From Polyangiaceae bacterium (GTDB lineage: Bacteria; Myxococcota_A; Polyangia; Polyangiales; Polyangiaceae): a stretch of 64,000 nt of DNA. The translations under genes were made by a program, and so were the position numbers. The stretch is taken from NCBI GenBank assembly GCA_044224495.1, contig JBGAKG010000005.1, forward strand, positions 172,711 through 236,710, written 5' to 3'. The notes beneath the pieces are model-generated. The model was not told the DNA's origin and did not search any database. It was given only the letters and a program-made list of their open reading frames with translations. Shown here in pieces: positions 43,907 to 63,343 of the stretch (its first letter is position 1; each line of letters begins with the position of its first letter).

Positions 43907-43955
43907 CGGGCGCGAGCATAGCGCGCGCGGGACGCGGGGGAAGCGCGCTGCTACG

Positions 43956-46405: not shown

Positions 46406-46457
46406 GCTCGCCGAGCACGCCGGACGGGCGTGGTGGGCGCGTGGTACGCTGCGTCCG

Positions 46458-49320: not shown

Positions 49321-50040
49321 TCAGGCTTCGTCGATCGCGGCGAGGCGCTCGATGGCGTCGGGCGCCGCGATTCGGAACCCCGCTTCCTCGGTCAGGATGA
49401 CCCCCGTCTTGTGCCAGCGGCTCAGGACGCGCGTCGCCGACTCGGGCGTCGTCCCGACGAGGGACGCGAGGTCGGAGCGCGACAGCGCGAGCGGGACCAT
49501 CACGTCTCCATCGTCCAGCTCGTCGCCGAAGCGCTCCGCGAGGTGGAGGAAGAGCGTCGCGAGTCGGTTCTCCACCTGCCCGGCACCGAGGATCCGGATG
49601 GTGCTCTGCAACGCGAGGTTGTGCTCGGCGAGCGACTGGTTGATCGCGTGAGCGATCGTCGTGTCGCGGAGCATGGCTTCGAGCAGCGCCCCCCGCTCGA
49701 TCCACAGGAGCTCCGCGAGCTCCGTGGCGACGACGGCGTCCGCCGGGTACGGGCGCCCGCGCACGACCGCCGCGTCACCGACGCTCTCGTGGGGACCGAA
49801 GATGCCGAGGATCGACGCGCGCCCGCTGCGGAGCGGCGCGGCGACCTTCACGACGCCGCTCGCGATCACCGAGAGCTCGCGCGCTTCGTCGCCGGCGCGC
49901 CAGAGGAGCTCGCCGCGCGCATGCCGACTCCGTCGGCTCGAACGTCCCAGCTCGGCGAGCGACGAGGCCTCGAGCGCCCCGAACACGCGCGAGACTCGGA
50001 GGATCTTCTGCGCACTCTCCACCCGTCCATCCGACACCAT
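49321..50040 (-). CDS. Crp/Fnr-family transcriptional regulator
   Basis: cNMP-binding-like beta-roll, then HTH LSRSDLASLVGTTPESATRVLSRW. Start ambiguous (Met at 50076, 50052 or 50040). Confidence 0.75.
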   Translation of the reverse strand: MVSDGRVESAQKILRVSRVFGALEASSLAELGRSSRRSRHARGELLWRAGDEARELSVIASGVVKVAAPLRSGRASILGIFGPHESVGDAAVVRGRPYPADAVVATELAELLWIERGALLEAMLRDTTIAHAINQSLAEHNLALQSTIRILGAGQVENRLATLFLHLAERFGDELDDGDVMVPLALSRSDLASLVGTTPESATRVLSRWHKTGVILTEEAGFRIAAPDAIERLAAIDEA

Positions 50041-50135
50041 GCTCCTCTTCATGCCGTCGCACGCAGGATTGTGCACTGACGCACGTCATCGCCCCCTTCG
50101 AAGGTGCACGGCACGCTGACGGTGGAGGTTCCGCC

Positions 50136-53100
50136 ATGCGTGCTCGTCCCGCTCTCGCGGTGCTCGTCGTCGCGCTCGCCGCCGCCGTGGCTCCCCAGCT
50201 CGCGTGCAGCTCCCACGACGTGCCGCAAGCCACCTACTTCGAGCGTGTCGTCTCGCCCGTGCTCCAGACGAGCTGCGCGCGGTCACCGACCGGCTCCGGC
50301 TGCCACGTCAGCGACGCGCGCGGCAACGCGTTCGGCAACCTCGACGTCACGAGCTTCGCGAACCTGAACAAGCGGCGGGACTTGCTCGCGACCTACGGTC
50401 CCTACCGACAGCCGAGCTTCCTCCTCAAGGTCATCCCGGAGCAGGAGATCGGGCTGCGGAGCTTCGACGGCACCGCGACCACGGTCCGGAGCGACGTGCG
50501 CCACACCGGCGGCTCGGTCTTCGACCCCAGTGCTTCGGGCTACCTCGTGCTCGCGCGTTGGATCGAGAACGGCGCGACCGAGAACAACAACGGGATCCGG
50601 ACCGTCCCCGTCGCCTCCGATCCGTGCTCGAGCACGGTGCCCGCCACGCCCGGCTTCGATCCGACGAAGGACCCGACGACCCCCGACTGGCCGACCTTCC
50701 GCGACACGGTGAACGCGCCCCTCGCGAACCGCTGCGGAGCGGGAAGCTGCCACGGCAACCCGATGAACGAGCTGTACCTGACCTGCGGCACGACGCCCGA
50801 GCAGACCCGGTTCAACTACTTCGCCGCCGTCGACTACCTCGGGAGCAGCCCCGATCAGTCGGAGCTCGTTCGGCGCCCGCTCGCGCAGACGTTCGGAGGC
50901 TCGTTCCACGAAGGCGGCGTCGTCTTCGAGACCTCGAGCGATCCCGACCTCGTCGCGCTCGAGGCGTGGGCCGAAAAGCACGGACCGCTCGTCGTCCCCG
51001 ACTTGGGGCCCGGCTTTTCGTACTTCGCGCGCCGCGTCCAGCCGGTGCTCGTGCGGAAGGGCTGCCTCCAGCTCCAGTGCCATTCGTCCTCGAGCTTCCA
51101 CGACTACCGGCTCCGCGGCGGTGCCGGCGGGAGCTTCTCGTTCTCGGCGACGCGCAAGAACTACGAGCTCAGCCTCGCTCAGCTCGCGCTCGAGAGCGAC
51201 GACCCGCGCGCGAGCAGGCTCGTGCGGAAGAACCTGTTCCGACCGGAGCTCGGAGGCGTCGGGATCGTCCATCGCGGCGGCCCCCTCTTCGAGGATCTCG
51301 GGAAAGATCCCGCCGTCGGGAGCTCGTGCGACGGCAAGGGATGGGACCTGGACGGTGGGAGCCTCGACACGATCCCCGCCTTCTGCATCGTCCGCGAGTG
51401 GCTGCGTCGCGAGCGCACCGCGCGGCCCGTCGCGCCGTGGACCGGCGTCGCCTTCGTCCGGCGCGCGCTCTCGAGCGCGCCCGATCGCCTCCAGGACTTC
51501 GACCTCTACCGACCCGGGAGCGATCTCCGTCTCGTCGACGTGCAGGTCGACGGAAGTGGCGCCGTCACCCTCGCGAACGAGCGCTCGGTGACGACGAGCT
51601 GCGGGCTCGATCCTTCGACCGCCGACATTCGCCGACCGGCCGTGTCGTGGGATGCGAAGCGGATCGCGTTCGCCGCCCGCGCTTCGGCGGGCGCGCCGCT
51701 CCGGATCTACGAGCTCGCAGCGGACGGGAGCGGTTGTACGCTCCACGCCGGCATCGGCACCGCGCCGCCGAGCGGCAACGGGCTCCCGATCCACGACTTC
51801 GATCCCAGCTTCGGGCCGCCCGATGGCAACGGTGTCGCCCCGATCGTCTTCGCGTCGACGCGCGGCAACCTCGACTCGACCCCGTACGACTACACCGGCC
51901 CCCAACGCACGCCGGCGGACCCGACGAAGCCGAACGCCGACCTCTACGTCTACGAGGCCGACCCGAAGAAGCCGGGCTCGTTCCGCATCCGGCAGCTCAC
52001 CTTCCTCCTCGACCTCGAGCGGCAGCCCGCCTTCATGGCGGACGGGCGCGTCATCTTCACGATCGAGAAGCGCCTCCCCGGGTTCCACCAGCTCGCCCTC
52101 CGTCGCATCAACCTCGACGGCGGCGACTACCACCCGCTCTTCGGCCAACGCGGGAGCGTGGGCTTCCACGCCGTGTCCCAGGTCGTGCAGCTCCCCGACA
52201 AGAACTTCGCCGCCATCTTCGCGGACCACGGTGTCCCCCATCGCGGCGGAACGCTCGGCGTGGTGAACCGCACGATCGGCGTCGACTTCGGCAGCACCGA
52301 CGCCGCGGACTATCCGCTCGATCCCGCGCTCGCGACGGGCACCTCGACGAAGCAACCGAGCCCGGCCTTCTTCCTCCACTCGCTGCGGATCGTCGACCCT
52401 GCCGTCACCGGTCGCGCGAACGTCGGCACGGCGGGCTTCTTTGCGTCGCCGGCGCCGCTCCCCGACGGGAGGATCCTCGCGAGCTTCGCCGCCGCGAGCG
52501 ACGCCGTGAGCTTCACCGGCGACTACGACGTCGTCATCGTCGACCCGAGCACCGGCGCGCGAACGCCGCTCCTCGGCGCTCCCGGCGTCGCCGACATCGA
52601 GGCGGTCGCCATCTACGGGCGCCCCATCCGCAAGGTCTACGCGTCGGCGCCATCGGAGCCGAACGCGTACGGCATGGACGAGACGCGCTCGACCGCCGAC
52701 ATCACGCTCCACGACGCGCCGACGATCCTCGCCCTCATGCTGCAGAACACGCCGGCGGGGCGCTCGGTCGACCCCGACGTTCGGTCACTGCGCTTGTTCG
52801 AGGAGCTCCCGCCTCCGCTGGAGGTCTCGAGCTTCGACCTCGGCGGGGCGAACGTCGTGACGGATGCATGGGGCAAGGTCTACGTGCGGCGCCGCTTGAT
52901 CGGGGCGGTGCCGATCGAGAGCGACGGCTCGGCACGCTACCTCGTCCCCGGCGGGCTCCCGCTCGCGCTCGAGGTCCCCGAGACCCCGATGTCGACGACG
53001 GCGAAGCTCCCGCGCTTCGTGAACGAGCACCTGATGTTCACGCCGGGAGAGTCCGTCCACGAGGCGTTCCCGCACGGCTTCTTCGACGGGTTCTGCGGGC

Positions 53101-53249
53101 AATGCCACGGCGCGACGAGCGGGCGGCCGCTCGACGCCGCGATGAAGCCCGACATCTTCTCCGGCGCCTCGCGCACGATCGCCGCCGGGCGGCCCGCGAC
53201 GAACCTGAACCTTGCTCCCGCGAGCCGCGGCGCTCCGGTCGGGCCATGA
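50136..53249 (+). CDS. large (1037 aa) lipoprotein with a single C-terminal CxxCH, unknown family
   Basis: Lipobox LACSS. One CxxCH (CGQCHGA) near the C-terminus. Stop overlaps the downstream cytochrome start (ATGA). Confidence 0.6.
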   Translation: MRARPALAVLVVALAAAVAPQLACSSHDVPQATYFERVVSPVLQTSCARSPTGSGCHVSDARGNAFGNLDVTSFANLNKRRDLLATYGPYRQPSFLLKVIPEQEIGLRSFDGTATTVRSDVRHTGGSVFDPSASGYLVLARWIENGATENNNGIRTVPVASDPCSSTVPATPGFDPTKDPTTPDWPTFRDTVNAPLANRCGAGSCHGNPMNELYLTCGTTPEQTRFNYFAAVDYLGSSPDQSELVRRPLAQTFGGSFHEGGVVFETSSDPDLVALEAWAEKHGPLVVPDLGPGFSYFARRVQPVLVRKGCLQLQCHSSSSFHDYRLRGGAGGSFSFSATRKNYELSLAQLALESDDPRASRLVRKNLFRPELGGVGIVHRGGPLFEDLGKDPAVGSSCDGKGWDLDGGSLDTIPAFCIVREWLRRERTARPVAPWTGVAFVRRALSSAPDRLQDFDLYRPGSDLRLVDVQVDGSGAVTLANERSVTTSCGLDPSTADIRRPAVSWDAKRIAFAARASAGAPLRIYELAADGSGCTLHAGIGTAPPSGNGLPIHDFDPSFGPPDGNGVAPIVFASTRGNLDSTPYDYTGPQRTPADPTKPNADLYVYEADPKKPGSFRIRQLTFLLDLERQPAFMADGRVIFTIEKRLPGFHQLALRRINLDGGDYHPLFGQRGSVGFHAVSQVVQLPDKNFAAIFADHGVPHRGGTLGVVNRTIGVDFGSTDAADYPLDPALATGTSTKQPSPAFFLHSLRIVDPAVTGRANVGTAGFFASPAPLPDGRILASFAAASDAVSFTGDYDVVIVDPSTGARTPLLGAPGVADIEAVAIYGRPIRKVYASAPSEPNAYGMDETRSTADITLHDAPTILALMLQNTPAGRSVDPDVRSLRLFEELPPPLEVSSFDLGGANVVTDAWGKVYVRRRLIGAVPIESDGSARYLVPGGLPLALEVPETPMSTTAKLPRFVNEHLMFTPGESVHEAFPHGFFDGFCGQCHGATSGRPLDAAMKPDIFSGASRTIAAGRPATNLNLAPASRGAPVGP

Positions 53250-54994
53250 CCCGCTGGCGCGAGCGAGCCACGCTCGTCCTCACCGCCACGCTCCTCGGCG
53301 CCGGTACGGCAGGCGCCGCGTGCTCCAGCGACGACGAGCTCGCGCCGGGGAGCGATGCCGGGAGCGACGTCTTCGTCGAGGCGCAAGACGACCCGACGAC
53401 CGAGCTCGGGCCGTCGACGGATGGGGGCGACGCCGAAGGCCCGATCGATCTCGAGGACTTTCACGTTCCCGGCACGCAGATCGGCGACGTCCCCTGGGCG
53501 GCGCTGCTGCGACCGTCCGACTGCACGTCGTGCCACGGCGCAACGACGACGCCCGCCGCCCCCGGGCCCACCTGGTCGGCGAGCTTGATGTCGGTCGCAG
53601 GAAAGGACCCGCTCTTCTACGCGCAGCTCGCGACCGCGAATCAGGACGTCCCCGGGGTCGGCTACTACTGCCTGCGCTGCCACGTCCCCGCGTCGATCGT
53701 GACGGGCAACGCCGCGATCCCGAGCGGAAAGGTCCTCTCGAACTACGATCGCGACGGAGTCAGCTGCCACTTCTGTCACATGATGGTCGACCCGACGCTG
53801 CCGGATGCGGCCCCGAGCCAGGACGCACCGATCCTGGCAGCGCTCGCCGATCGGCCGTCCCATTTTGGTAACGCGCAGTTCGTCCTCGATCCCGGCGGGC
53901 TCCGGCGCGGTCCCTACGTCGACGCCGCTGCGCTGCACCCCTACACGTCTTCGCCCTTCTTCCGGCGGAGCGAGCTGTGCGGGACGTGTCACGACGTGGG
54001 GAACCCGGCCGTCCCCGCGACGGATGCCGGCTTCGCCTACGATCCTCCCAAGCAGCGCGCCGCGAACCCCGACCCGGTCGCGCAGTTCCCGCTCGAGCGC
54101 ACCTTCTCCGAGTGGCGCGCCTCCGCGTTCGCCGACGGCGGCGTCGACATGGGCGGGCGCTTCGGCGGGGCCGACGGCGGCGTCGTCTCGACGTGCCAGG
54201 ACTGCCACATGCCGGTCGAGACGTCGCAGGGCTGCATCTTCGGCCCGAGCCGGACGGATCTGAGGCGCCACGACTTCGCGGGCGCATCGGCGTGGGTGCT
54301 CGACATCGTGTCCCTTCGCGAGGGGGCCAACGTCGATCAACCCGCCCTCGCGCGCGGCCACACCAATGCGGTCGCGATGCTGCAGCGCGCGGCCACGCTC
54401 ACGGTCTCGAAGAACGGGGCGCAGGTGGTCGTCCGGGTCACCAACGAGAGCGGGCACAAGCTCCCGACGGGCCACATCGAGGGGCGCCGCGTCTTCCTCG
54501 AGGTCAAGTTCACCGACGGCGCCAACGCGGTGCTCACCCACCACGGGCGCTGGAACCCGGCGACGGGAGATCTCGAAGGCGCGCCGACGACCGTGTTCGA
54601 GATGGAGATCGGGCTCAGCCCCACCGCCGCGAAGCTCACCGGCCTGCCCGCCGGCCCGACCACGCACATGTCGCTCGCCGACGTGGTCGTCTCGGACAAT
54701 CGCATCCCGCCGCGGGGCTTCAGCAACGTGGCGTTCGGTGCCGTCGGTGCGGGCGCCGTCGGTGCGACGTACGCCGACGGCCAGCACTGGGCCGACGTCC
54801 CGTTCGCGATCCCGAACGGCGCGACGAAGGTCGAGGTTCGGTTGCTCTACCAGACCGTGACGCGCGAGTACGTCGAGGCGCTCGCGAAAGGGAACAAGAC
54901 CGACGGTTGGGGAACGGAGCTCCAGAGCTTGTGGCTCGCGACGGGTCGTGCGCCGCCGATCGAGATGGCGTCCACCCAGCTCTCCCTCCCGTGA
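53246..54994 (+). CDS. pentaheme c-type cytochrome lipoprotein (paralog of 18330..19727)
   Basis: Lipobox GAACSS. CTSCH, CLRCH, CHFCH, CGTCH, CQDCH. Shares RTFSEWR and CHMP motifs with the other cytochrome. Confidence 0.8.
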   Translation: MTRWRERATLVLTATLLGAGTAGAACSSDDELAPGSDAGSDVFVEAQDDPTTELGPSTDGGDAEGPIDLEDFHVPGTQIGDVPWAALLRPSDCTSCHGATTTPAAPGPTWSASLMSVAGKDPLFYAQLATANQDVPGVGYYCLRCHVPASIVTGNAAIPSGKVLSNYDRDGVSCHFCHMMVDPTLPDAAPSQDAPILAALADRPSHFGNAQFVLDPGGLRRGPYVDAAALHPYTSSPFFRRSELCGTCHDVGNPAVPATDAGFAYDPPKQRAANPDPVAQFPLERTFSEWRASAFADGGVDMGGRFGGADGGVVSTCQDCHMPVETSQGCIFGPSRTDLRRHDFAGASAWVLDIVSLREGANVDQPALARGHTNAVAMLQRAATLTVSKNGAQVVVRVTNESGHKLPTGHIEGRRVFLEVKFTDGANAVLTHHGRWNPATGDLEGAPTTVFEMEIGLSPTAAKLTGLPAGPTTHMSLADVVVSDNRIPPRGFSNVAFGAVGAGAVGATYADGQHWADVPFAIPNGATKVEVRLLYQTVTREYVEALAKGNKTDGWGTELQSLWLATGRAPPIEMASTQLSLP

Positions 54995-56028
54995 ACGGCG
55001 ATCGCACCCGAAGCGCGATCCGCGGATGGCTCACCGCGTGCGCCGTCCTCACGGCGGCGATGATCCTCCTCGGCGGGCTCACACGGCTCACCCGCGCCGG
55101 CCTCTCGATCACGACGTGGGATCCGGTGATGGGAGCGCTCCCTCCCCTCGATCACGGAGCGTGGGAGCACGCGTTCGAGCTCTATCGCTCGTCCCCCGAA
55201 GGGCGGCTCCGCGCCGACGCGATGGACCTCGGCGCGTTCCAGCACATCTACTGGATCGAGTGGGCACACCGCCTGCTCGGACGTGCGCTCGCGGTGGTGC
55301 TGTTCGGTCCGCTCGTCGTCTTCGCTGCGCGGCGCAGCCTCCCGCGCACGGTCACGCTCCGCCTCGGGCTGGTGTTCGTCGCGGGCGGGGTCCAGGCCCT
55401 GCTCGGCTGGCTCATGGTCCAGAGCGGGCTCGTCGATGCCCCGCACGTCAGCCCGTACCGCTTGGCGGGGCACTTCACGCTCGGCGTCGCGCTCTTCGTG
55501 GCCATGCTCTGGAGCGCATTCGACGCGTGGGCGACGGACGCTGCCGTCGTCGAGCGCACGCCGGCGCGCCTCCGGCTCCTCGCTTTCGTCGCCGGTGCCA
55601 ACGCATTCGCCCTCCTCGTCTGGGGCGCGCTGATGGCGGGGCACCACGCCGGGCTCGTCTTCTCCGACTTTCCGATGATGGGCGGCCGAGTCGTGCCGAG
55701 CGGCGCCTTCGCGAACGGCTCGCTCGGGGGCGCTGCGGTCGGCGACGCGATCACGGTCCACTTCATCCATCGCATGCTCGCGTTCGCGCTCGTCGCCCTC
55801 GCCGGCGCCCTGGTCGTCGTCTCGCGCAGCGCGCCGGTGGCGCCGACGACGCGGCGCTGGGCCCTCGTCGTGCTCGCAGCCGTGCTCGTTCAGCTCGCGC
55901 TCGGCGCCGCGACGGTGATGACCCACGTGCCGCTCGCGCTCGCGTCCGCTCATCAAGCCGGCGCGCTGTTCGTCGTCTTCGCGCTGACGGGCCTCGTGCG
56001 TCGTACCAGCGCCGGGCCTGCACTATAG
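54991..56028 (+). CDS. ctaA: heme A synthase (COX15/CtaA, type 2)
   Basis: Eight TM helices. Conserved His motifs WAHRLLGR and IHRMLAF. GTG start overlaps the upstream stop. Confidence 0.8.
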   Translation: MNGDRTRSAIRGWLTACAVLTAAMILLGGLTRLTRAGLSITTWDPVMGALPPLDHGAWEHAFELYRSSPEGRLRADAMDLGAFQHIYWIEWAHRLLGRALAVVLFGPLVVFAARRSLPRTVTLRLGLVFVAGGVQALLGWLMVQSGLVDAPHVSPYRLAGHFTLGVALFVAMLWSAFDAWATDAAVVERTPARLRLLAFVAGANAFALLVWGALMAGHHAGLVFSDFPMMGGRVVPSGAFANGSLGGAAVGDAITVHFIHRMLAFALVALAGALVVVSRSAPVAPTTRRWALVVLAAVLVQLALGAATVMTHVPLALASAHQAGALFVVFALTGLVRRTSAGPAL

Positions 56029-56081
56029 CTACGTGATCCGCGTCATGGCAGCGCGCGTCGCCGTGCGCGAAGGTCGAAGCG

Positions 56082-57767
56082 ATGATGCTCGCGGCCCTCG
56101 AGAGCGACCGACCTGCTCCGCGCGCGCAGGGCACGATCGTCGAAGCGCTCGCGGCCGCTGCGGCCGCAGATGCGCCGCTGGCGACGTTCCACGGCGGGAG
56201 CGCCGGCCCGACCGTGCTGGATGCGCGGGCCACGTTCGCGCGGGCGAACGCCTGGGCCCAGCGCCTCGTTGCGCGCGGCGTCCGGCGGGGCGACCGCGTC
56301 GTGATCCTGGTCCCCACCGGACCCACGTTCGTCGCGGCGTTGCTCGGCGCGATGATGGCGGGTGCCGCCGCCGTTCCGCTCGCGACGCCGCTGACCTTCG
56401 GCTCGGTGGAGCCGTTCCTGCGCAACCTGGGGCCGATCCTCCTCTCGGCGGATGCCCGCGCGCTCGTCACGACGCCGCGCGTGCTCGGGACGCTCGCGTC
56501 GCACCGCGGCAGCCTCCACGTCCCGACCGCCGTCCTCGTCGATGGCGACGAGCCTTCGCCTGAACCGCGTCCGCTCCCGAGCGTCGACCCCCAAGACACG
56601 GCCCTCATCCAGTACACGTCGGGGACGACCGGGTTGCCGAAGGGCGTCGTCATCTCGCACCGCGCGCTCGTCGCCAACGCCGCGTCGATCGCCGAGGGTC
56701 TCGGGCTCGACGCGCGGGACGTCGGCGTCAGCTGGCTCCCGCTCTTCCACGACATGGGCCTGGTCGGCGTCCTGCTCACGGCCGTGTGTCACCCCTACGC
56801 GCTGCACCTCGCCGCGCCCGAGTACTTCGCGATGGGTGCCGAGCGCTGGCTCCACCTCATCGCTCGGGTCGGCGCGACCATCACCGCCGCCCCCAATTTC
56901 GCGTACCAACGCTGCGTGGCGCGCGCGGCGCGGCTCGAAGGCGTCCGCCTGGATGCGCTGCGGCTCGCCTTGAACGGCGCCGAGCCGGTCCACGCCGAGA
57001 CGCTTCGTCGGCTCGCCGCCACGCTCGCCCCGCACGGCTTCGCGCCGACCGCATCCCTCCCCGTCTACGGGATGGCCGAGTGCACGCTCGCGGTGACGTT
57101 CGCCGACCGCGGCGCGCCCCACGCGTTGAAGCTCGACCGTGGCGGGCTCGAGCGCGAAGGAATCGCCTGCGCCAGCACGGCGCCCGAGGCGCGCGAGGTC
57201 GTGAGCGTCGGGCGCCCGGTCGCCGGAGCCGCGATCCGCGTCGTCGACTCGGGACGCGCCACGGTCCCCAACGGGCGCGTCGGGCGGATCCTCGTGCGCT
57301 CTCCCTCGCTGATGGACGGCTACTTCCGCAACGAAGCGGCCACGCGCGCCGTCCTCGCCGACGGGTGGCTCGACTCCGGCGATCTCGGCTTCGTCGCGGA
57401 CGGTCAGCTCTACGTGACGGGACGCGCGAAGGACGTCGTGATCCAGGGCGGACGCAACATCGACCCCCACGACGTCGAGCGAACGCTCGAGACGGAGTGC
57501 GGGCTCCGCCCCGACAGCGTCGTCGCGTTCGGCGTTTCCGATTCCAGCGTCGCGACGGAGCGGCTCGTGCTGGTCGTCGAGGCGAAACCGACGGAGGAGG
57601 AACGCTCTGACGCGCGCGCCCGCGAGCTCCGGGGCGCCGTCCTCGCCGCGCTCGGCGCACGGATCGACGAGGTGATCTTCGTCGCGCTCGGGTCGATCCC
57701 CCGCACCACGAGCGGCAAGCCGCGCCGCGCCGAGTGCGCGCGCCTCCACGCGGAGGCGCGTTCGTGA
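56082..57767 (+). CDS. fatty acyl-AMP ligase / AMP-dependent synthetase (FAAL-like)
   Basis: YTSGTTGLPKGV. LPLFHDMGL. YGMAE. GDLG...GRAKD. SGKPRR C-terminus. This motif set is typical of FAAL/FadD32-type loaders. Confidence 0.85.
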   Translation: MMLAALESDRPAPRAQGTIVEALAAAAAADAPLATFHGGSAGPTVLDARATFARANAWAQRLVARGVRRGDRVVILVPTGPTFVAALLGAMMAGAAAVPLATPLTFGSVEPFLRNLGPILLSADARALVTTPRVLGTLASHRGSLHVPTAVLVDGDEPSPEPRPLPSVDPQDTALIQYTSGTTGLPKGVVISHRALVANAASIAEGLGLDARDVGVSWLPLFHDMGLVGVLLTAVCHPYALHLAAPEYFAMGAERWLHLIARVGATITAAPNFAYQRCVARAARLEGVRLDALRLALNGAEPVHAETLRRLAATLAPHGFAPTASLPVYGMAECTLAVTFADRGAPHALKLDRGGLEREGIACASTAPEAREVVSVGRPVAGAAIRVVDSGRATVPNGRVGRILVRSPSLMDGYFRNEAATRAVLADGWLDSGDLGFVADGQLYVTGRAKDVVIQGGRNIDPHDVERTLETECGLRPDSVVAFGVSDSSVATERLVLVVEAKPTEEERSDARARELRGAVLAALGARIDEVIFVALGSIPRTTSGKPRRAECARLHAEARS

Positions 57768-58774
57768 AGCGCGCCGTCGTCGTCGGGGGAACGGGGTTCA
57801 TCGGCCTTCACGTCGTCGATGCGCTGCTCGCCGGAGGCTGGACCGTGCGCGCGACGCGTCGCCCCTCGTCGCCGACGCTCCTGCTCCGGCGCCGCCCGGT
57901 CGAGCTCGTCCACGCGGATCTCGACGACGAGGCGTCGCTCGAGCGCGCGTTCGACGGCGCGGACGCGGTCTTCCTCGCGGGCGCGTACTACCCCCGCTAC
58001 TCGCTGGAGCTCGCCGGTGCCGTCGAGCGCGGAACGGCGCAGCTCCGGCGCGCATGTACCGTCGCGCGCAAGGCCGGCGTCGCGCGCCTGATCTACAGCT
58101 CGTCGGTCGCCGTCCTCGGCCCCGGAGCGAGCGTCGCCACCGAAGCGGACGTCGGCGAGCCCGATCCGCGCGAGGGCGTGTACCCGACCGTAAAGAAGAC
58201 GATGGAACGGGAGCTCGACCGCGCGCGCGACGCGGGCCTCTCCGCGACCTCGCTCCTGCTCGGCGGGTGCATCGGCCCTTGGGATCTCCGCCTCGGCACG
58301 GGCGGGTTCGTCGCCGCGCTCCTCGCCGGCGCGCCCCTCCGGTGGACCGACGGGCTCGTCCACCTCGTCGCCGTGTCCGATGCCGCACGCGCCCATGTCG
58401 CCGCGGTCGGGAGCGACGCCCCGCGCTACCTCGTCGCCGGCAAGAGCCTCCGCGTCGCCGAGCTCGTCGCGATGGTCGTCGAGCGCCACGGCGCCGCGCA
58501 CCCGGGCGATCCGGTCTCGCTCGCCTCCGCCCGCGAGCTCGCGACGCGGAGCGAAGCCGCCGCCGCCCCGCGCCGCCGCCGCGTCACCCTCCCGCGCGAG
58601 CTCGTCGACATCGTCGCGCTCGGTCGCCCGATCTCGACCCAGCTCGCCGAGCGGGATCTGGATCTCCGCTGGACCCCCCTCGAGGCGGCGCTCGACGCGT
58701 TCGTCGCGTGGCTCATCCGGCACCGCTACGTCCCCCGAATCCCCGCCTCCAGGAGTGATCACAATGTCGTCTGA
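57764..58774 (+). CDS. NAD(P)-dependent epimerase/dehydratase-family (extended SDR) oxidoreductase
   Basis: Rossmann GGTGFIG. YxxxK (YPTVKK). GTG start overlaps the FAAL stop. Confidence 0.8.
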   Translation: MKRAVVVGGTGFIGLHVVDALLAGGWTVRATRRPSSPTLLLRRRPVELVHADLDDEASLERAFDGADAVFLAGAYYPRYSLELAGAVERGTAQLRRACTVARKAGVARLIYSSSVAVLGPGASVATEADVGEPDPREGVYPTVKKTMERELDRARDAGLSATSLLLGGCIGPWDLRLGTGGFVAALLAGAPLRWTDGLVHLVAVSDAARAHVAAVGSDAPRYLVAGKSLRVAELVAMVVERHGAAHPGDPVSLASARELATRSEAAAAPRRRRVTLPRELVDIVALGRPISTQLAERDLDLRWTPLEAALDAFVAWLIRHRYVPRIPASRSDHNVV

Positions 58775-59048
58775 ACCGGCCACCACGTCGATCCGCGGGC
58801 GCATGCGCGCGCTCGTCGCCGAGATCCTCGAGATCGAGCAAGACCGCATCGAGCCGCAGAGCCGCCTCCGCGAGGATCTCGGCATGGACTCGCTCGGGAG
58901 CCTCGAGATGCTCTCCACGATCAGCGAGCAACTCGACGTGCACCTCGAGATCGAGGAGGCGATGGACATCGTCACGTTCGACGACGCCTGCCGCTTCGTC
59001 GAACGACAGCTCCCCGAAGCCAGGGTGGTCCATGAGCACCGCGCCTGA
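58764..59048 (+). CDS. acyl carrier protein (stand-alone)
   Basis: AGGAG RBS lies 9 nt upstream. Phosphopantetheine site DLGMDSL. 94 aa. Confidence 0.8.
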   Translation: MSSEPATTSIRGRMRALVAEILEIEQDRIEPQSRLREDLGMDSLGSLEMLSTISEQLDVHLEIEEAMDIVTFDDACRFVERQLPEARVVHEHRA

Positions 59049-60537
59049 CCCGGCGTTCGAGCTCGCGCGTCAGGTCGCCCGCTGGTGCACCGCCCACGTC
59101 GATGCGGCCGCGCTCGAGGCCGGGGGCGAGATTCCGGGTCGGCTCCTCGACGGGCTCGCCGCGCTCGGCCTGTTCGCGATGACGCTCCCCGCGAAGCACG
59201 ACGGCGCGGAGCTGGGATTGGCCTCCGCCTGCCACGTCGTGGAGGAGCTCGCGCGTCACGATCGCTCCGTTGCGACGACCGTCGGCCTGCACGCGGGGCT
59301 GGGCACGCAAGCGGTGGTCCGCGGCGCACGGCCCGAGCTGGGCGCGGCGTGGCTGCCGCGCCTGGCGAGCGGGGCCGCGATTGGGGCGTTCGCCGCGACC
59401 GAGGCCGGTGCCGGCTCGGATCTCATGAGCATCCGGACTGCCCTCATCGACGATGGGAACGAGCTCTACCTCGACGGCGAGAAGAGCTACGTCACCAACG
59501 CCCGCTACGCGGGCTGCTTCACCGTCCTCGCGCGGCGCGGACCGCGCGGACACTCGCTCGTCCTCGTCCCGCGCAGCGCGGCCGGGATCACGATCGGGCC
59601 GGAGGAGTCGAAGCTCGGCTTGCGCGCGTCGTCGACTGCGACCGTACGCTTCGACGCCGTTCGCCTCCCGCGTCACCACGTGCTCGGCGCCGATGGCCGC
59701 GGGCTCGAGCTCGCCTATCAGGTGCTCGGCTGGGGGCGAACGATGATGGCGGCCGGATGCACCGGGACGGCGCGGGCCGCCTTGGCGGCGACGCTCGATC
59801 ACGTCGACCACCGCCGGCAGTTCCGCCGCTCGCTCTTGTCGTTCCCCGCCGTCCAGCTCCAAGTGGCGGAGATGGCGGCGCTGACCGAGGCGTCACGCGC
59901 CTTCGTGCGACGAGTCGCGACGACCCTCGATCGCGGCACCGATGCCGAGATGCTCTCGATGGCGCTCAAGGTCTTCGCGAGCGAACAAGCGTTTCGCGCG
60001 TGCGACACCGCGATCCAGCTCCACGGAGCGCTCGGCGTCATCGAGCCCGTCGGGGTCGCGCGCCTCCTCCGCGACTGCCGCGTCACTCGGATCTTCGAGG
60101 GCGCGAACGACGTGCTTCTGGTCCGCCTCGCGACGGCGCGCCTCGCGACCGCGGCGCCGCTCGAGCGCGCGAACGCCAGCGTCGGGCGCGACGAGGCCGC
60201 GCATCTCCACCGCATGGCCGACGCGATCGACGCCGCTACCGCGGACGTGCGGCGGCGAATGGGCTTCGCCGCCGTGACCCGCCAGGCGACGCTCGTCGGG
60301 CTCGCGCGGGCCGAGCTCGCGTACCAGGCGGCGCTCGCGCTCGCGCTCGATCCGCCGCGCGACGAGGATCTCGCCGCGGTCGGGATCGCTGCGCTCGAGC
60401 GCGACGCGCATGTCGCGCTCGAGTCGCTCGACGCCGCCGAAGCGACCGCCGTCCGCGCGGACCGCATCTGCAACCGCCTCCGCAGCGCACCCGCCGGAGG
60501 CACGGCTGCGGCGCCGCTCACCGAGAGGACCGCATGA
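59032..60537 (+). CDS. acyl-CoA/acyl-ACP dehydrogenase family protein
   Basis: ACAD fold signatures (ATEAGAGSD, YVTNA, catalytic-base region IFEGANDV). Extra C-terminal about 110 aa. Start overlaps the ACP stop. Confidence 0.8.
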   Translation: MSTAPDPAFELARQVARWCTAHVDAAALEAGGEIPGRLLDGLAALGLFAMTLPAKHDGAELGLASACHVVEELARHDRSVATTVGLHAGLGTQAVVRGARPELGAAWLPRLASGAAIGAFAATEAGAGSDLMSIRTALIDDGNELYLDGEKSYVTNARYAGCFTVLARRGPRGHSLVLVPRSAAGITIGPEESKLGLRASSTATVRFDAVRLPRHHVLGADGRGLELAYQVLGWGRTMMAAGCTGTARAALAATLDHVDHRRQFRRSLLSFPAVQLQVAEMAALTEASRAFVRRVATTLDRGTDAEMLSMALKVFASEQAFRACDTAIQLHGALGVIEPVGVARLLRDCRVTRIFEGANDVLLVRLATARLATAAPLERANASVGRDEAAHLHRMADAIDAATADVRRRMGFAAVTRQATLVGLARAELAYQAALALALDPPRDEDLAAVGIAALERDAHVALESLDAAEATAVRADRICNRLRSAPAGGTAAAPLTERTA

Positions 60538-61841
60538 CCCCCGACCGCCGGCGAAGAGTCCGCTTCGTCTACCCCAAGTTCTCGCGCCACGCGGAGGCTC
60601 ACCCCGAGCTCCTCGACGCGGTCCCGTGCAACGAGTACTTCGGTCCACCGTCGCTCGGCATCGCCTGCCTCGCCGCGGTCACGCCGCCGGAGTGGGAGCT
60701 CGACTTCCGCGACGATCGCCTCGAAGACGTCGGCCTCGACGACGACGTCGATCTCGTTGCCATCTCGTGCTTCACCCCCTCCGCGACACGCGCGCTCGAG
60801 CTCGCAGACGCGTTCCGCGCGCGCGGACGCAAGGTCGTGATGGGTGGGATCTTCCCGACGATGGTCCCCCACGAGGCCGAGGCCCACGCCGACGCCGTCG
60901 TCCTCGGCGAGGGAGAAAGCGTGTGGCCGACCGTCCTCGCCGATGCCGCGCGCGGCAGCCTCCAGCGCCGCTACCAGGCGACGAGCGCCGTCGACCTCGC
61001 GACGCTCCCGCAACCGCGGATCGACCTCTACGTGAACAAGGAAGGCCGCTCCTTCGCGCCCGACGACTACCCGGTCCAGACGTCGCGCGGCTGCCCGCTC
61101 GCGTGCTTCGCCTGCGCCATCCCCGGCGTGATGGGGAAGAAGATGCGCTACTACCCCGTCGAGCACGTCGTCGAGCAGCTCGACCGGCTCGGGAGCTTCG
61201 GGAAGCTCGGCTCGCTCACGGAGGACACGACCTTCTTCCCGGTCGCGGCGAAGCACCTCGAGGCGATCCTCGACGCCATCCACGCGCGCGGAACCCCTGC
61301 CTCGGTCAGCTACCTCGGCGTGAGCATGCCGATGATCCTCGCGACCCCAGCGGCGCGCCTCCGGCGCATGCGCGACGCCGGCATCCGCATGTTCTACCTC
61401 GTGGGCGGGTTCGACGACGTCACCATGAACGCGTTCTCCGGGACCGACGCTCGCGCCCACGGGCGCGCAGTCGATGCGATCGCGAAGGCCCACGACCACG
61501 GCATCGAGCCCTACACGTCGTTCCTCGTCGGGAACGACGGCGACGACGAAGGCGTCTTCGATCGGATGCTCGAGTTCGCCAACGCGACCAAGATCGCGAA
61601 GGCGGAGTTCGCGATCCTCACGCCCTACCCTGGGACGCCCGTCTACGGGCGGCTCGCGAAGGAGGAGCGCATCCTCACGCGCCGCTGGTCGCTCTACAAC
61701 GACGCCAACGTCGTGTTCCGCCCGGCGAAGATGACGCCCGAGCGTCTGCTCGCGGGCTACCTCTACCTGTGGCGGGAGTTCTACCGCTCGCGCCAGGAGC
61801 TGCGCGAAGCCGGCCGCGAGGCGCGGACGATTCAGTTCTGA
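60534..61841 (+). CDS. B12-binding-domain radical SAM protein (class B)
   Basis: N-terminal B12-binding Rossmann (DLVAISCFT...VVMGGIFPT). CxxxCxxC (SRGCPLACFAC). ATG overlaps the ACAD stop (ATGA). Confidence 0.8.
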   Translation: MTPDRRRRVRFVYPKFSRHAEAHPELLDAVPCNEYFGPPSLGIACLAAVTPPEWELDFRDDRLEDVGLDDDVDLVAISCFTPSATRALELADAFRARGRKVVMGGIFPTMVPHEAEAHADAVVLGEGESVWPTVLADAARGSLQRRYQATSAVDLATLPQPRIDLYVNKEGRSFAPDDYPVQTSRGCPLACFACAIPGVMGKKMRYYPVEHVVEQLDRLGSFGKLGSLTEDTTFFPVAAKHLEAILDAIHARGTPASVSYLGVSMPMILATPAARLRRMRDAGIRMFYLVGGFDDVTMNAFSGTDARAHGRAVDAIAKAHDHGIEPYTSFLVGNDGDDEGVFDRMLEFANATKIAKAEFAILTPYPGTPVYGRLAKEERILTRRWSLYNDANVVFRPAKMTPERLLAGYLYLWREFYRSRQELREAGREARTIQF

Positions 61842-63260: not shown

Positions 63261-63343
63261 GCCCGAGACTTTGCGTCCGGGGTCGCCCGGGGGCGATGAC
63301 GTCCGTCAGGGCGGCCCCCGCCGACCGGGCCTACGGAGGAGTC

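What the first reader, a model, noticed from the sequence alone, without database searches (positions are those of the whole stretch)
50136..56028. Coupled operon: 1037-aa lipoprotein with a lone C-terminal CxxCH, then a pentaheme cytochrome c lipoprotein, then heme A synthase
All three genes overlap stop to start (ATGA at 53246, GTGA at 54991). Heme A synthase normally sits with cytochrome oxidase subunits (ctaB/ctaCDE). Here it is fused transcriptionally to a periplasmic multiheme cytochrome and a huge single-heme lipoprotein. This suggests an unusual electron-transfer or haem-handling module. The pentaheme protein has a paralog at 18330..19727, also next to a YtkA-like lipoprotein.
Basis: partly seen in the sequence, partly recalled or inferred. 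Interest (0 to 1): 0.55.

Follow-up and report, generated by a model that had tools for sequence, protein, structure and literature searches.

The report
Cytochrome operon with haem A synthase
This is a real three-gene operon in a soil myxobacterium that joins a distant relative of the anammox hydrazine-synthase alpha subunit, a five-haem cytochrome and haem A synthase; it shares a regulator binding site with the nitric-oxide stress gene nnrS, but what the two cytochromes do is still unknown.

Summary
Genes A (50136-53249), B (53246-54994) and C (54991-56028) overlap by ATGA and GTGA, and a 76-79 % identical relative keeps the same overlaps.

A is not a plain single-haem protein. Residues 429-1031 are homologous to hydrazine-synthase-alpha-type proteins, and its CxxCH aligns with their first haem motif. 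The N-terminus carries three related repeats with invariant C-x4/8-CH motifs. B is a five-haem cytochrome with the fold of T. tepidum c552. It belongs to a large unnamed family that is about 55 % identical across five phyla. C is a complete Cox15-type haem A synthase.

The exact three-gene order is lineage-specific. The association still recurs in rearranged forms, and with a non-orthologous CtaA.

A palindrome, TGAC-N4-GTCA, occurs twice in 64 kb: upstream of A and between nnrS and a YtkA-like gene. It also precedes A-subclade genes, B, ctaA and nnrS in other lineages.

Best reading: an FNR/DNR-type microoxic/NO regulon. In it, ctaA supplies haem a (known eNOR operons also carry ctaA), and A and B are periplasmic redox partners of unknown substrate. 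This is a moderately interesting new variant, with no function shown.

The parts
49321..50076 (-). Crp/Fnr-family regulator, divergent from gene A. The real start is probably near 50040. It has no FNR-type Cys cluster.
   Evidence: Pfam cNMP_binding plus HTH_Crp_2. Orthologues sit next to A in L003, L086, L087, L089 and L156. No N-terminal cysteines in the orthologues. Not close to any solved regulator.
50077..50088 (.). Palindromic box TGACgcacGTCA, 59 bp upstream of the A start codon. Candidate operator of the Crp/Fnr regulator.
   Evidence: One of only two exact copies in 64 kb, against 0.59 expected. The same box lies 51-62 bp upstream of A in five further distinct loci of the A1 clade (L003, L089, L090, L108, L156), 128 bp upstream in L088, and upstream of B-A in L087. 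It is absent upstream of 39 HZS_alpha operons.
50136..53249 (+). Gene A: 1037-aa predicted lipoprotein, an HzsA-like multihaem protein of the 'A1' subclade.
50223..51431 (+). N-terminal region of A (aa 30-432). Three related repeats, each with F..V.P.L...C-x4/8-CH (C47/C56H57, C200/C205H206, C310/C315H316).
   Evidence: Motifs invariant in 50 homologues. hhalign repeat 2 vs 3: 88 %, E 3e-6. Repeat 1 vs 2: 54 %. The motifs align to the second haem motif of HZS_alpha proteins with a 2-residue insertion. The domain is confined to this family, about 410 representatives.
51420..53228 (+). HZS_alpha-homologous part of A (aa 429-1031): beta-propeller plus middle domain.
   Evidence: Foldseek best hit is HzsA 5c2v_A, E 1.8e-18 over 654 columns; the next hit is 3.5e-5. 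Profile vs PDB gives HzsA at E 3e-7. hhalign vs the 760-aa HZS_alpha proteins gives 98.9 %, E 2e-17.
53094..53108 (+). The only canonical CxxCH of A (C987-G-Q-C-H991). Equivalent to the first (alpha-I-type) haem motif of HZS_alpha proteins.
   Evidence: It aligns column for column with CVGCH (540-544) of the 760-aa HZS_alpha protein. Invariant in the family.
53246..54994 (+). Gene B: 582-aa predicted lipoprotein, a pentahaem cytochrome c with C-terminal beta-sandwich domains.
   Evidence: Five invariant CxxCH and an invariant GHKLPTGHIEGRR motif. AF2 pLDDT 87; best PDB fold is 5ze8, pentahaem c552, E 1.9e-13. More than 2200 homologues.
54991..56028 (+). Gene C: Cox15-type haem A synthase (CtaA).
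   Evidence: Pfam COX15-CtaA E 4e-85 over 2-321/322. About eight hydrophobic segments. E90-x-x-H93, H161, H257/H260 and H321 are present.
56034..56045 (.). One-mismatch copy of the box (TGATccgcGTCA), 48 bp upstream of the FAAL gene.
   Evidence: An exact box lies at the same 48-bp distance in L003. On its own, a one-mismatch match is at chance level in the window.
56082..61841 (+). Downstream cluster: FAAL, NAD-epimerase/reductase, ACP, acyl-CoA dehydrogenase, B12-radical SAM. Probably a separate, co-regulated transcription unit.
   Evidence: Pfam and NCBIfam. Same order in L003. The cluster also lies near B, CtaA or NnrS in L008, L019 and L030.
62814..63305 (-). Second YtkA-like lipoprotein gene, divergent from nnrS.
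   Evidence: Pfam YtkA E 1.3e-10; tblastn.
63297..63308 (.). Second exact box, TGACgtccGTCA, between the YtkA-like gene and nnrS.
   Evidence: A box also lies upstream of nnrS in L019 and L030.
63257..64000 (+). nnrS (NnrS protein). The ORF runs off the window end, and the true start lies downstream of the box.
   Evidence: Pfam NnrS E 1.7e-58.
18330..19727 (-). Distant paralogue of B (five CxxCH, GHGFPSG motif), convergent with YtkA-like 17828-18325 (+). No box upstream.

Best explanation
A, B and ctaA form one translationally coupled operon. It belongs to a regulon controlled by the divergently encoded Crp/Fnr-family regulator through an FNR/DNR-type box, (A/C/T)TGAC-N4-GTCA(T/A). The regulator has no Fe-S cysteine cluster, so it is of the DNR/NnrR/FixK kind and not FNR proper. 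The same box sits in front of nnrS in the window, and in front of B, ctaA, nnrS and members of A's own subclade in other Myxococcota, Acidobacteriota, Binatia and Lysobacterales. The operon is therefore most likely induced under microoxic conditions and/or nitric-oxide stress.

Within this response:
- CtaA makes haem a for a haem-copper enzyme induced at the same time. This could be an eNOR-type NO reductase or a haem-a oxidase, and it is encoded outside the window.
- B, a lipid-anchored pentahaem cytochrome in which five His other than the CxxCH histidines are conserved (which haem ligands they supply is untested), acts as a periplasmic electron wire.
- A is the candidate catalytic partner. 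It is anchored to the membrane by a lipid, collects electrons through up to three C-x4/8-CH haem repeats, and has one alpha-I-type haem at the propeller/middle-domain interface, where a small N-oxide (NO or hydroxylamine) or a related small molecule would be turned over.

Shown: the gene structure, the homologies, the recurring synteny and the shared box. Inferred: which regulator binds the box, the inducing signal, haem occupancy of the non-canonical motifs, any A-B contact, the substrate, and the recipient of haem a.
For: Operon:
- 4-bp overlaps, conserved in L003/L004.
- Shine-Dalgarno sequence only before A.
- No terminator or promoter-like site inside the operon.

Regulon:
- There are two exact boxes in 64 kb against 0.59 expected. 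One is 59 bp upstream of A and one lies between nnrS and the YtkA-like gene.
- Across 2.5 Mb of loci the box occurs at 0.028 per kb.
- It lies upstream of A, or of the B-A pair, in 7 of 10 distinct loci of A's own clade. Its position is 51-62 bp from the start codon in the window, L003, L089, L090 and L156 (and in L108, which the tree did not include), 128 bp in L088, and upstream of B-A in L087.
- It lies upstream of 0 of 39 HZS_alpha-HEAT-A operons.
- It lies upstream of B in 19 of the 80 genome loci (none of them among the 52 from Planctomycetota) and in L087, of ctaA in 4 of 9 loci, and of nnrS in 3 of 4.
- In Lysobacterales the box reads TTGAC-N4-GTCAA, the classic FNR/DNR half-site type.
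- A Crp/Fnr gene is adjacent to A in the window, L003, L086, L087, L089 and L156.

N-oxide theme:
- nnrS lies next to B-A in L087.
- nosZDFY plus hemerythrin/ScdA lie next to A in L005, and hemerythrin in L091.
- In Planctomycetota, 16 of 52 B loci carry an Rrf2 regulator. Some also carry hemerythrin, nosZ and a Nar/Nxr-like enzyme.
- ScdA lies beside B and ctaA in Thermoanaerobaculia.

ctaA link:
- The association recurs with a non-orthologous, Bacillus-type CtaA (28 % identity) in L086.
- In L074, B lies near ctaA, DUF420 and a CuA subunit plus a haem-copper subunit I without the cross-link Tyr.

A as an enzyme-like haem protein. B as a wire: c552 fold, with five conserved His besides the CxxCH histidines.
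Against: - No haem-copper oxidase or NOR gene lies in the 64-kb window, so the recipient of haem a is unknown.
- The regulator is not close to any characterised family member. An oxygen signal cannot be told from an NO signal by sequence.
- The A1 clade loci L005 and L091 have no box, and L086 has none upstream of ctaA-A. Most B loci have none either.
- The box centre is only 53.5 bp from the ATG. A class II arrangement (-41.5) would put the transcription start inside the Shine-Dalgarno sequence, so the promoter geometry is unresolved.
- B is about as similar to homologues that have no A nearby (53-58 %) as to those next to A (57-61 %). Its function therefore does not depend on A.
- A-B adjacency was seen in only three arrangements.
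- Haem attachment to C-x4-CH and especially C-x8-CH motifs is unproven here.
- The exact A-B-ctaA order is confined to one narrow lineage.
Confidence: 0.45

Rival explanations
1. The genes are co-regulated neighbours with no shared pathway. A, B and ctaA each serve a separate role and were brought together in this lineage by rearrangement inside a variable 'respiratory island'. The overlaps reflect compaction and not a functional module.
For: The exact order occurs in only one lineage. Gene order is shuffled in L086, L087, L008 and L030. B is highly conserved whether or not A is nearby. A occurs alone in L088, L090 and L091.
Against: The association recurs with a different order and with a non-orthologous CtaA. 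The same box sits in front of A, B, ctaA and nnrS when they are in separate transcription units. ctaA lies within 10 kb of B in 6 of 80 loci, in about four independent lineages. From own reasoning, about 0.2-0.8 % would be expected for a single-copy gene in a 5-10 Mb genome.
Confidence: 0.25
2. This is an oxygen-limitation (FixK/FNR-like) respiratory branch with no link to NO. B and A would carry electrons to a haem-a terminal oxidase whose cofactor supply (ctaA) is raised at low oxygen.
For: The box is of the FNR/FixK half-site type. Copper and oxidase-biogenesis genes lie nearby: YtkA-like twice in the window, a CcoG/NapH-like polyferredoxin beside B in 38 loci, and DUF420 in L074. Many Polyangia are aerobes (own knowledge).
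Against: The neighbours nnrS, nosZ, hemerythrin/ScdA and Rrf2 point to NO and not only to oxygen. The haem-copper enzyme next to B and ctaA in Lysobacterales lacks the cross-link tyrosine needed for O2 reduction (criterion from PMC11214002). From own knowledge, haem-a oxidases are usually repressed, not induced, at low oxygen.
Confidence: 0.15
3. The CtaA-like protein serves here as a membrane dihaem-b electron entry point for B and A. It would replace the NapH/CcoG-like polyferredoxin that accompanies B in other phyla, and would not act as a haem A synthase.
For: Myxococcota B loci lack the polyferredoxin (0 of 10), against 31 of 52 in Planctomycetota. Two unrelated CtaA types sit next to A and B.
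Against: The match to the COX15-CtaA model is full length, and the Glu/His residues expected of an active synthase are all present. There is no precedent for such a role. The eNOR precedent explains the link more simply.
Confidence: 0.05
4. B, possibly with A, is a sulfur-compound reductase of the MccSep/ExtKL kind: five haems plus an Ig-like domain, with polysulfide reduction at a His/Cys-ligated haem.
For: The only NCBIfam hit of B is ExtKL, E 2.4e-8 over residues 311-432. The overall architecture is the same (bioRxiv 10.1101/2025.11.18.688581). B has one nearly invariant unpaired Cys (C330, 47 of 50).
Against: The score of 33 bits is far below the 250-bit cut-off. The motif in the Ig-like domain carries invariant His residues (GHKLPTGH), and no Sec or TGA read-through is involved. 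No sulfur-metabolism genes appear among the conserved neighbours.
Confidence: 0.05
5. A is a genuine hydrazine synthase subunit, indicating anammox-like chemistry.
For: The best structural and profile matches are to HzsA.
Against: Identity is 14 %. The score of 18.9 bits compares with an 800-bit cut-off. There is no Tyr at the position of the alpha-I proximal ligand and no C-terminal alpha-II domain. No beta or gamma subunit gene is adjacent. Non-anammox HzsA homologues already lack the key residues (PMC12758564). The host is a 70 % GC Polyangia-like organism.
Confidence: 0.01

Closest known systems
Hydrazine synthase alpha subunit (HzsA, Kuenenia; PDB 5C2V) and the non-anammox 'HZS_alpha domain' proteins (PF18582; Hagglund et al. 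2025, PMC12758564)
   Same: Residues 429-1031 of A share the beta-propeller plus middle-domain fold (Foldseek E 1.8e-18). They are profile-homologous to 760-aa HZS_alpha proteins (98.9 %). A's CxxCH aligns with their first haem motif. As in the published non-anammox homologues, the Tyr ligand of haem alpha-I is missing.
   Different: A has no C-terminal alpha-II haem domain. Instead it has a family-specific 400-aa N-terminal region of three repeats with C-x4/8-CH motifs. It falls below the Pfam and NCBIfam thresholds. Its partner is not a beta-gamma (propeller plus CCP/MauG-like) protein. The wider A family sits in HZS_alpha-HEAT-A operons, while the window's subclade has lost these and sits with Crp/Fnr, B, ctaA, nnrS or nos genes.
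Pentahaem cytochrome c552 of Thermochromatium tepidum (PDB 5ZE8), with related pentahaem plus beta-sandwich proteins: PtdA (bioRxiv 10.1101/2023.11.21.568154) and MccSep/ExtKL
   Same: Five CxxCH haems are followed by Ig-like beta-sandwich domains carrying a (G/P)HxxPTG motif. 5ZE8 is the only significant PDB fold match (E 1.9e-13), with profile E 3.5e-4.
   Different: Identity is 17 %. B is about 150 residues longer and lipid-anchored. It belongs to its own family, about 55 % identical across phyla, with the invariant motif GHKLPTGHIEGRR. The function of c552 itself is unknown. MccSep's defining Sec/Cys catalytic residue was not located in B's alignment, and its NCBIfam cut-off is not met (33 vs 250 bits).
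eNOR operons that carry ctaA (Murali et al. 2024, PMC11214002)
   Same: Haem A synthase is encoded together with N-oxide respiration genes. Expression is tied to microoxic conditions. A tyrosine-less, CuA-type haem-copper enzyme lies next to ctaA and B in the Lysobacterales loci.
   Different: The window holds no haem-copper enzyme. Here ctaA is translationally coupled to two periplasmic c-type cytochromes and not to NOR subunits.
DNR/NnrR/FNR-type regulons of denitrifiers, with nnrS as a typical member (own knowledge)
   Same: An adjacent Crp/Fnr regulator, a 5-4-5-type palindrome with TTGAC/GTCAA-like half sites, and nnrS among the targets.
   Different: The regulator is not assignable to DNR, NnrR, FixK or FNR by sequence. 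The core in Myxococcota and Acidobacteriota is (A/C)TGAC-N4-GTCAT. The target set (A, B, ctaA, FAAL cluster) has not been described.

Membership tests
Hydrazine synthase alpha (HzsA; NF052339 / PF18582) | Beta-propeller plus middle-domain fold | tested here: met
   Foldseek 5c2v_A E 1.8e-18 over 654 columns. hhalign to HZS_alpha-domain proteins 98.9 %, A 429-1031 vs 32-577.
Hydrazine synthase alpha (HzsA; NF052339 / PF18582) | Score above the curated family thresholds | tested here: not met
   NCBIfam hydrazine_alpha 18.9 bits vs cut-off 800. No Pfam hit at E 0.01.
Hydrazine synthase alpha (HzsA; NF052339 / PF18582) | CxxCH of haem alpha-I in the middle domain | tested here: met
   C987-H991 aligns with CVGCH 540-544 of the HZS_alpha protein. 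Invariant in the family.
Hydrazine synthase alpha (HzsA; NF052339 / PF18582) | Tyr proximal ligand four residues after the motif His, with that His bound to zinc (PMC12758564, PMC12607021) | tested here: not met
   The sequence after H991 is G-A-T-S-G, with no Tyr. The same loss is reported for other non-anammox homologues.
Hydrazine synthase alpha (HzsA; NF052339 / PF18582) | C-terminal bis-His haem alpha-II domain | tested here: not met
   Only 46 residues follow the motif. The alignment ends at position 577 of the 759-aa HZS_alpha protein. Alpha-II-like motifs occur instead in the N-terminal repeats, with 2 extra residues between the cysteines.
Hydrazine synthase alpha (HzsA; NF052339 / PF18582) | Co-encoded beta/gamma (propeller plus dihaem CCP/MauG-like) partner | tested here: not met
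   The neighbours are Crp/Fnr, B, CtaA and FAAL. B has a c552 fold and not a CCP fold. The only other CxxCH ORFs in the window are the B paralogue and a small monohaem cytochrome.
c552-type pentahaem cytochromes (PDB 5ZE8) | Five CxxCH motifs followed by Ig-like domain(s) with an HxxPTG motif | tested here: met
MccSep / ExtKL polysulfide reductase (NF040886) | Score above the curated cut-off | tested here: not met
   33 bits vs 250, matching only residues 311-432.
MccSep / ExtKL polysulfide reductase (NF040886) | Conserved Sec/Cys in the Ig-like domain and a Cys distal ligand of haem 2 | tested here: inconclusive
   B has no in-frame TGA. The Ig-domain motif has invariant His404 and His410. 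One nearly invariant free Cys330 exists, but its equivalence to MccSep C239 could not be established without the MccSep sequence.
Haem A synthase (COX15/CtaA, PF02628) | Full-length match above the gathering score | tested here: met
   286 bits vs 29.9, model positions 2-321 of 322. The alphaproteobacterial equivalog model is below its cut-off (244 vs 550), so C is not that exact subtype.
Haem A synthase (COX15/CtaA, PF02628) | About eight transmembrane helices, with E-x-x-H in TM2 and His in TM4, TM6 and TM8 (residue roles from own knowledge of B. subtilis CtaA) | tested here: met
   E90/H93, H161, H257/H260 and H321, with about eight hydrophobic segments.
Haem A synthase (COX15/CtaA, PF02628) | Conversion of haem o to haem a | not testable with these tools
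   Requires haem analysis of membranes.
FNR/DNR-type (Crp/Fnr) regulon | Adjacent Crp/Fnr regulator, and a palindromic box shared by several target genes | tested here: met
FNR/DNR-type (Crp/Fnr) regulon | N-terminal Cys cluster for a [4Fe-4S] oxygen sensor (FNR proper) | tested here: not met
   No Cys cluster in the window protein or its orthologues.
FNR/DNR-type (Crp/Fnr) regulon | Binding of the regulator to the box, and response to NO or O2 | not testable with these tools
   Needs EMSA or reporter and expression data.

The most novel reading that the evidence does not exclude
A (the HzsA-like, up to four-haem lipoprotein) and B (the pentahaem wire) form a previously unrecognised periplasmic enzyme system for NO or hydroxylamine turnover in non-anammox bacteria. 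It would be a functional cousin of hydrazine synthase, working in aerobic or microaerobic soil Myxococcota. It would be induced through a DNR-like regulator together with nnrS and with haem a synthesis for an eNOR-type reductase.
Probability: 0.15. Interest if true: 0.85.

Novelty: new variant of a known kind. Interest (0 to 1): 0.6.

Why it matters
Both cytochrome families are large and carry no functional name. A has more than 700 homologues. B has more than 2200 and is about 55 % identical across Planctomycetota, Myxococcota, Acidobacteriota, Binatia and Gammaproteobacteria.

Three lines of evidence place them in the under-explored part of the nitrogen cycle that also yielded eNOR and related enzymes:
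- a shared FNR/DNR-type box;
- neighbours such as nnrS, nosZ, hemerythrin/RIC, an Rrf2 regulator and a tyrosine-less haem-copper enzyme;
- repeated linkage to haem A synthase.

If A proves catalytic, it would give a function to the non-anammox relatives of hydrazine synthase, whose role is an open question (PMC12758564). It would also add a periplasmic NO-handling route in aerobic soil bacteria that matter for N2O budgets. Even without that, the box and the gene set give a concrete, testable regulon for Polyangia.

Tried and rejected
- Pfam and NCBIfam on A gave nothing usable.
- A sequence search of B against PDB found nothing. Only the profile and fold searches found c552.
- Exact-sequence look-ups of P0001 and P0021 found no contig.
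- The simple sigma-70 and terminator scan gave no site that could separate ctaA from B, but it is weak for a 70 % GC myxobacterium.
- I looked for A within 10 kb of B in 80 genomes. It was present only in the window's own lineage, so 'A-B is a universal pair' is rejected.
- I looked for the HZS_alpha-HEAT partners of the wider A family, and for a NapH-like polyferredoxin, in the window. Both are absent.
- I looked for haem-copper oxidase or NOR genes in the window. None are present.
- One-mismatch versions of the box occur at chance frequency (19 found vs 18.6 expected). Only the exact box, plus the positionally orthologous site at 56034, is used.
- The regulator could not be assigned to DNR, NnrR, FixK or FNR.
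- The N-terminal repeat domain of A was searched against 1.8 billion representatives. It occurs essentially only in this family, so it gives no functional lead.
- One search was an empty script.

Full report
**1. Observation**

The window is about 70 % GC throughout. The best protein matches come from Polyangia-type Myxococcota: Labilithrix, Pendulispora and Polyangiaceae MAGs.

The three ORFs are as described:
- A: 50136-53249, 1037 aa.
- B: 53246-54994, 582 aa.
- C: 54991-56028, 345 aa.

The junctions read GGGCC-ATGA-CC and CTCCC-GTGA-AC, so each stop codon overlaps the next start by 4 bp. A MAG relative (JBGANF01; loci L003, L004, L006; A 79 %, B 76 %, C 61 % identical) has the same order and the same two 4-bp overlaps in independent gene calls.

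Only A is preceded by a strong ribosome-binding sequence (GGTGGAGG, 50121-50128). No terminator-like or promoter-like site falls between the genes. The alternative starts for C are poor. The next in-frame ATG lies inside the first transmembrane helix, and the next upstream GTG lies 60 nt inside B.

I therefore treat A-B-C as one translationally coupled operon. A 53-nt gap separates C from the next gene.

**2. What the proteins are**

*Gene C.* C is a complete Cox15-type haem A synthase. It matches Pfam COX15-CtaA at E 4e-85 over the whole model. It has about eight hydrophobic segments and carries E90-x-x-H93, H161, H257/H260 and H321.

*Gene B.* B has five CxxCH motifs, all invariant in 50 homologues, and the invariant block N-x-x-GHKLPTGHIEGRR.
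- Its AlphaFold model is confident (pLDDT 87), apart from the linker after the lipobox cysteine.
- The only significant PDB fold match is the pentahaem cytochrome c552 of Thermochromatium tepidum (5ZE8, E 1.9e-13). A profile search supports this (E 3.5e-4), and the two proteins share the HxxPTG motif.
- Five His other than the CxxCH histidines are invariant or nearly so: H231, H342, H404, H410 and H474. Their ligand assignment is untested. One free Cys330 is present in 47 of 50 sequences.
- The family is large, with more than 2200 hits, and about 55 % identical across Planctomycetota, Myxococcota, Acidobacteriota, Binatia and Lysobacterales. Every member is labelled 'hypothetical'.
- The only curated-family hit is a weak partial match to ExtKL (33 bits vs a 250-bit cut-off). 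ExtKL has recently been described as the selenoprotein polysulfide reductase MccSep (bioRxiv 10.1101/2025.11.18.688581).

*Gene A.* A has no Pfam hit. Other evidence links it to hydrazine synthase alpha:
- Its homologues occasionally carry HZS_alpha, Tricorn_N or PD40 labels.
- Its model (pLDDT 75) matches hydrazine synthase alpha (5C2V chain A) at E 1.8e-18 over 654 columns. The next hit is 13 orders of magnitude weaker.
- A family profile finds HzsA in PDB at E 3e-7.
- A local profile-profile alignment against the 760-aa HZS_alpha-domain proteins of related loci gives 98.9 % probability, covering A 429-1031 vs 32-577. It places A's C987-G-Q-C-H991 exactly on their first haem motif, CVGCH.

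A ends 46 residues after this motif, so it lacks the second, alpha-II haem domain. The Tyr that ligates haem alpha-I in anammox HzsA is also absent (feature from PMC12758564).

The first 430 residues consist of three related repeats (hhalign 88 % and 54 %). Each carries F..V.P.L...C-x4-CH, or C-x8-CH in the first repeat. These cysteines and histidines are invariant in the family. The motif aligns with the alpha-II haem motif of HZS_alpha proteins, with two extra residues between the cysteines. C-x4-CH is a known c-haem attachment variant (own knowledge), so A may carry up to four haems. This N-terminal domain is essentially confined to this family.

**3. Synteny**

*The A family.* In 80 metagenome loci, the dominant context is an operon of HZS_alpha (760 aa, two CxxCH), a HEAT-repeat protein and A. 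The window's A belongs to a monophyletic subclade nested within these, which I call A1: window, L003, L088, L005, L089, L156, L090, L086, L091 and L087. This subclade has lost the HZS_alpha-HEAT partners. Its neighbours are instead:
- a Crp/Fnr regulator (window, L003, L086, L087, L089, L156);
- B (window/L003, L086, L087);
- ctaA (window/L003, L086);
- nnrS (L087, and the window 7 kb downstream);
- nosZDFY with hemerythrin/ScdA (L005);
- hemerythrin (L091).

Gene order differs between lineages:
- Window and L003: Crp< >A-B-ctaA.
- L086: Crp> <B, then ctaA>A>.
- L087: nnrS>B>A>Crp>.

The ctaA in L086 is a Bacillus-type CtaA with a CPDWPLC motif, only 28 % identical to the window's Cox15-type enzyme. 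The link to haem A synthase therefore arose at least twice.

*The B family.* In 80 genome loci, A is within 10 kb only in the window's own lineage. ctaA lies near B in four groups:
- a Myxococcales MAG (L008: ctaA...ACP-ACAD-rSAM-B);
- three Thermoanaerobaculia MAGs, where it is adjacent and convergent;
- a Lysobacterales MAG (L074).

In L074, ctaA lies beside DUF420, a CuA subunit and a haem-copper subunit I that reads WAFGHSSQQ and so lacks the cross-link tyrosine.

Unbiased clustering of B's neighbours gave the following:
- a NapH/CcoG-like membrane polyferredoxin in about half the loci (31 of 52 Planctomycetota, 0 of 10 Myxococcota);
- an Rrf2 regulator (16 of 52 Planctomycetota);
- a Nar/Nxr-like molybdoenzyme with a dihaem EB_dh cytochrome;
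- NosD/ABC genes, hemerythrin and ScdA/RIC.

**4. A shared cis-element**

The A-Crp intergenic region contains the palindrome TGACgcacGTCA (50077-50088). The relative L003 has TGACctggGTCA at the same distance from A, within otherwise diverged sequence.

The exact pattern TGAC-N4-GTCA occurs only twice in the 64-kb window, against 0.59 expected. The second copy (63297) lies between the divergent YtkA-like gene and nnrS.

Across all 2.5 Mb of fetched loci the box density is 0.028 per kb. Even so, the box lies in these positions:
- Upstream of A, or of the B-A pair, in 7 of the 10 distinct A1 clade loci. The distance to the start codon is 51-62 bp in the window, L003, L089, L090 and L156 (and in L108, a truncated A1-type locus that the tree did not include), and 128 bp in L088. 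In L087 the box sits upstream of the B-A pair.
- Upstream of none of 39 HZS_alpha operons.
- Upstream of B in 19 of the 80 genome loci, spread over Myxococcota, Acidobacteriota, Binatia and Lysobacterales with none in Planctomycetota, and upstream of B-A in L087.
- Upstream of ctaA in Thermoanaerobaculia and Lysobacterales.
- Upstream of nnrS in 3 of 4 loci.
- Upstream of the FAAL gene in L003.

The window has a one-mismatch copy at the same 48-bp distance from FAAL (56034). One-mismatch copies are otherwise at chance level.

In Lysobacterales the site reads cTTGAC-N4-GTCAAt, the classic FNR/DNR half-site type (classification from own knowledge). The adjacent regulator has cNMP-binding and HTH_Crp_2 domains but no FNR cysteine cluster. 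It is not close to any characterised member of the family.

**5. Interpretation**

The most economical reading is that A-B-ctaA is one operon of a microoxic/NO-responsive regulon, governed by the divergent DNR/NnrR/FixK-like regulator.

[quoted passage not shown] The Lysobacterales loci, where B lies near a boxed ctaA and a tyrosine-less CuA-type haem-copper enzyme, fit this picture.

- B looks like an electron wire.
- A, with an alpha-I-type haem on a propeller scaffold and extra haem repeats, looks like the catalytic or substrate-binding partner.
- In hydrazine synthase the alpha-I haem is the proposed site of hydroxylamine/ammonium comproportionation (PMC12607021), so a small N-oxide substrate is plausible for A.

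All functional steps are inferences: regulator binding, the signal, haem loading of the non-canonical motifs, A-B contact, the substrate and the recipient of haem a.

**6. Caveats and rivals**

- No haem-copper enzyme is encoded in the window.
- Oxygen and NO control cannot be distinguished from sequence.
- Some A1 loci and most B loci lack the box.
- B is conserved independently of A.
- The exact three-gene order is lineage-specific.

The main rivals are:
- co-regulated but functionally separate genes;
- a purely oxygen-limited respiratory branch;
- CtaA acting as a membrane electron-entry protein;
- a sulfur reductase of the MccSep kind;
- a true hydrazine synthase.

The last is excluded for practical purposes by the failed membership features. 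The section on rival explanations weighs the others.

**7. Novelty**

HzsA homologues outside anammox bacteria were described in 2025. Those are alpha subunits paired with fused beta-gamma homologues, mainly in Planctomycetota and Desulfobacterota, and none was reported from Myxococcota in the sections I read (PMC12758564).

As far as the searched literature shows, the following have not been described:
- the A family, with its N-terminal C-x4-CH repeats and its two genomic contexts;
- the B family;
- their shared box with ctaA and nnrS.

I rate this a new variant of known kinds: an HZS_alpha-like haem protein, a c552-like cytochrome, ctaA in an N-oxide context, and an FNR/DNR regulon. Interest is moderate to good.

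Noticed in passing
window 56082-61841 (+); also L003, L008, L019, L030: A cluster of FAAL, NAD-epimerase/reductase, ACP, acyl-CoA dehydrogenase and B12-radical SAM follows ctaA directly. L003 adds an FAD monooxygenase and L030 a ketosynthase. The cluster recurs near B, ctaA or nnrS in other Polyangia loci. L003 has an exact box 48 bp upstream of FAAL, and the window has a one-mismatch copy at 56034. The product is unknown; possibly a lipid made under the same conditions.
   Followed up: partly
window 62814-63305 (-), 63257-64000 (+): A second YtkA-like lipoprotein gene is divergent from nnrS, with the second exact TGAC-N4-GTCA box (63297) between them. From own knowledge, YtkA/CtaK is a copper chaperone for oxidase assembly in Bacillus.
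   Followed up: partly
L001, L002, L092-L165 (about 50 loci): The usual context of the A family in soil Myxococcota is a conserved three-gene operon: HZS_alpha protein (about 760 aa, two CxxCH), HEAT-repeat protein (about 300 aa), and an A homologue. It is entirely uncharacterised and has no TGAC-N4-GTCA box.
   Followed up: partly
L073, L074, L084 (Lysobacterales/Dokdonella): Near B lies a CuA subunit plus a haem-copper subunit I without the cross-link tyrosine (WAFGHSSQQ; the HH and HxH motifs are kept). Beside them are a boxed ctaA, DUF420 and UbiU/UbiV-like genes. This looks like an eNOR-type NO reductase cluster but was not classified phylogenetically.
   Followed up: partly
L007-L085, Planctomycetota loci: B is usually followed by a roughly 600-aa membrane polyferredoxin (Fer4_5, NapH/CcoG-like) with a C-terminal TPR domain. 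It is often accompanied by an Rrf2 regulator, a Nar/Nxr-like molybdoenzyme with its Fe-S subunit, and a dihaem cytochrome c fused to an EB_dh domain.
   Followed up: partly
window 46296-47117 (+): An ORF encodes about a dozen tandem PQGYGQPQQ repeats, followed by a Cys4 zinc-ribbon-like segment and a C-terminal hydrophobic helix.
   Followed up: no
window about 28400-28809 (+): A small predicted lipoprotein with a single CAACH motif, i.e. a class I monohaem cytochrome c.
   Followed up: no
window 14444-17814 (+): A sigma-54-dependent response regulator and a hybrid histidine kinase (PAS, HisKA, HATPase, REC, Hpt) lie directly upstream of the YtkA-like gene (17828-18325) and the convergent B paralogue (18330-19727, minus strand).
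   Followed up: no
window 43922-46405 (+) and L030 4635-6785 (-): A YgiQ-type radical SAM gene lies a few kb from the nnrS/B region in both the window and a Polyangiales MAG. This suggests a larger rearranged syntenic island.
   Followed up: no
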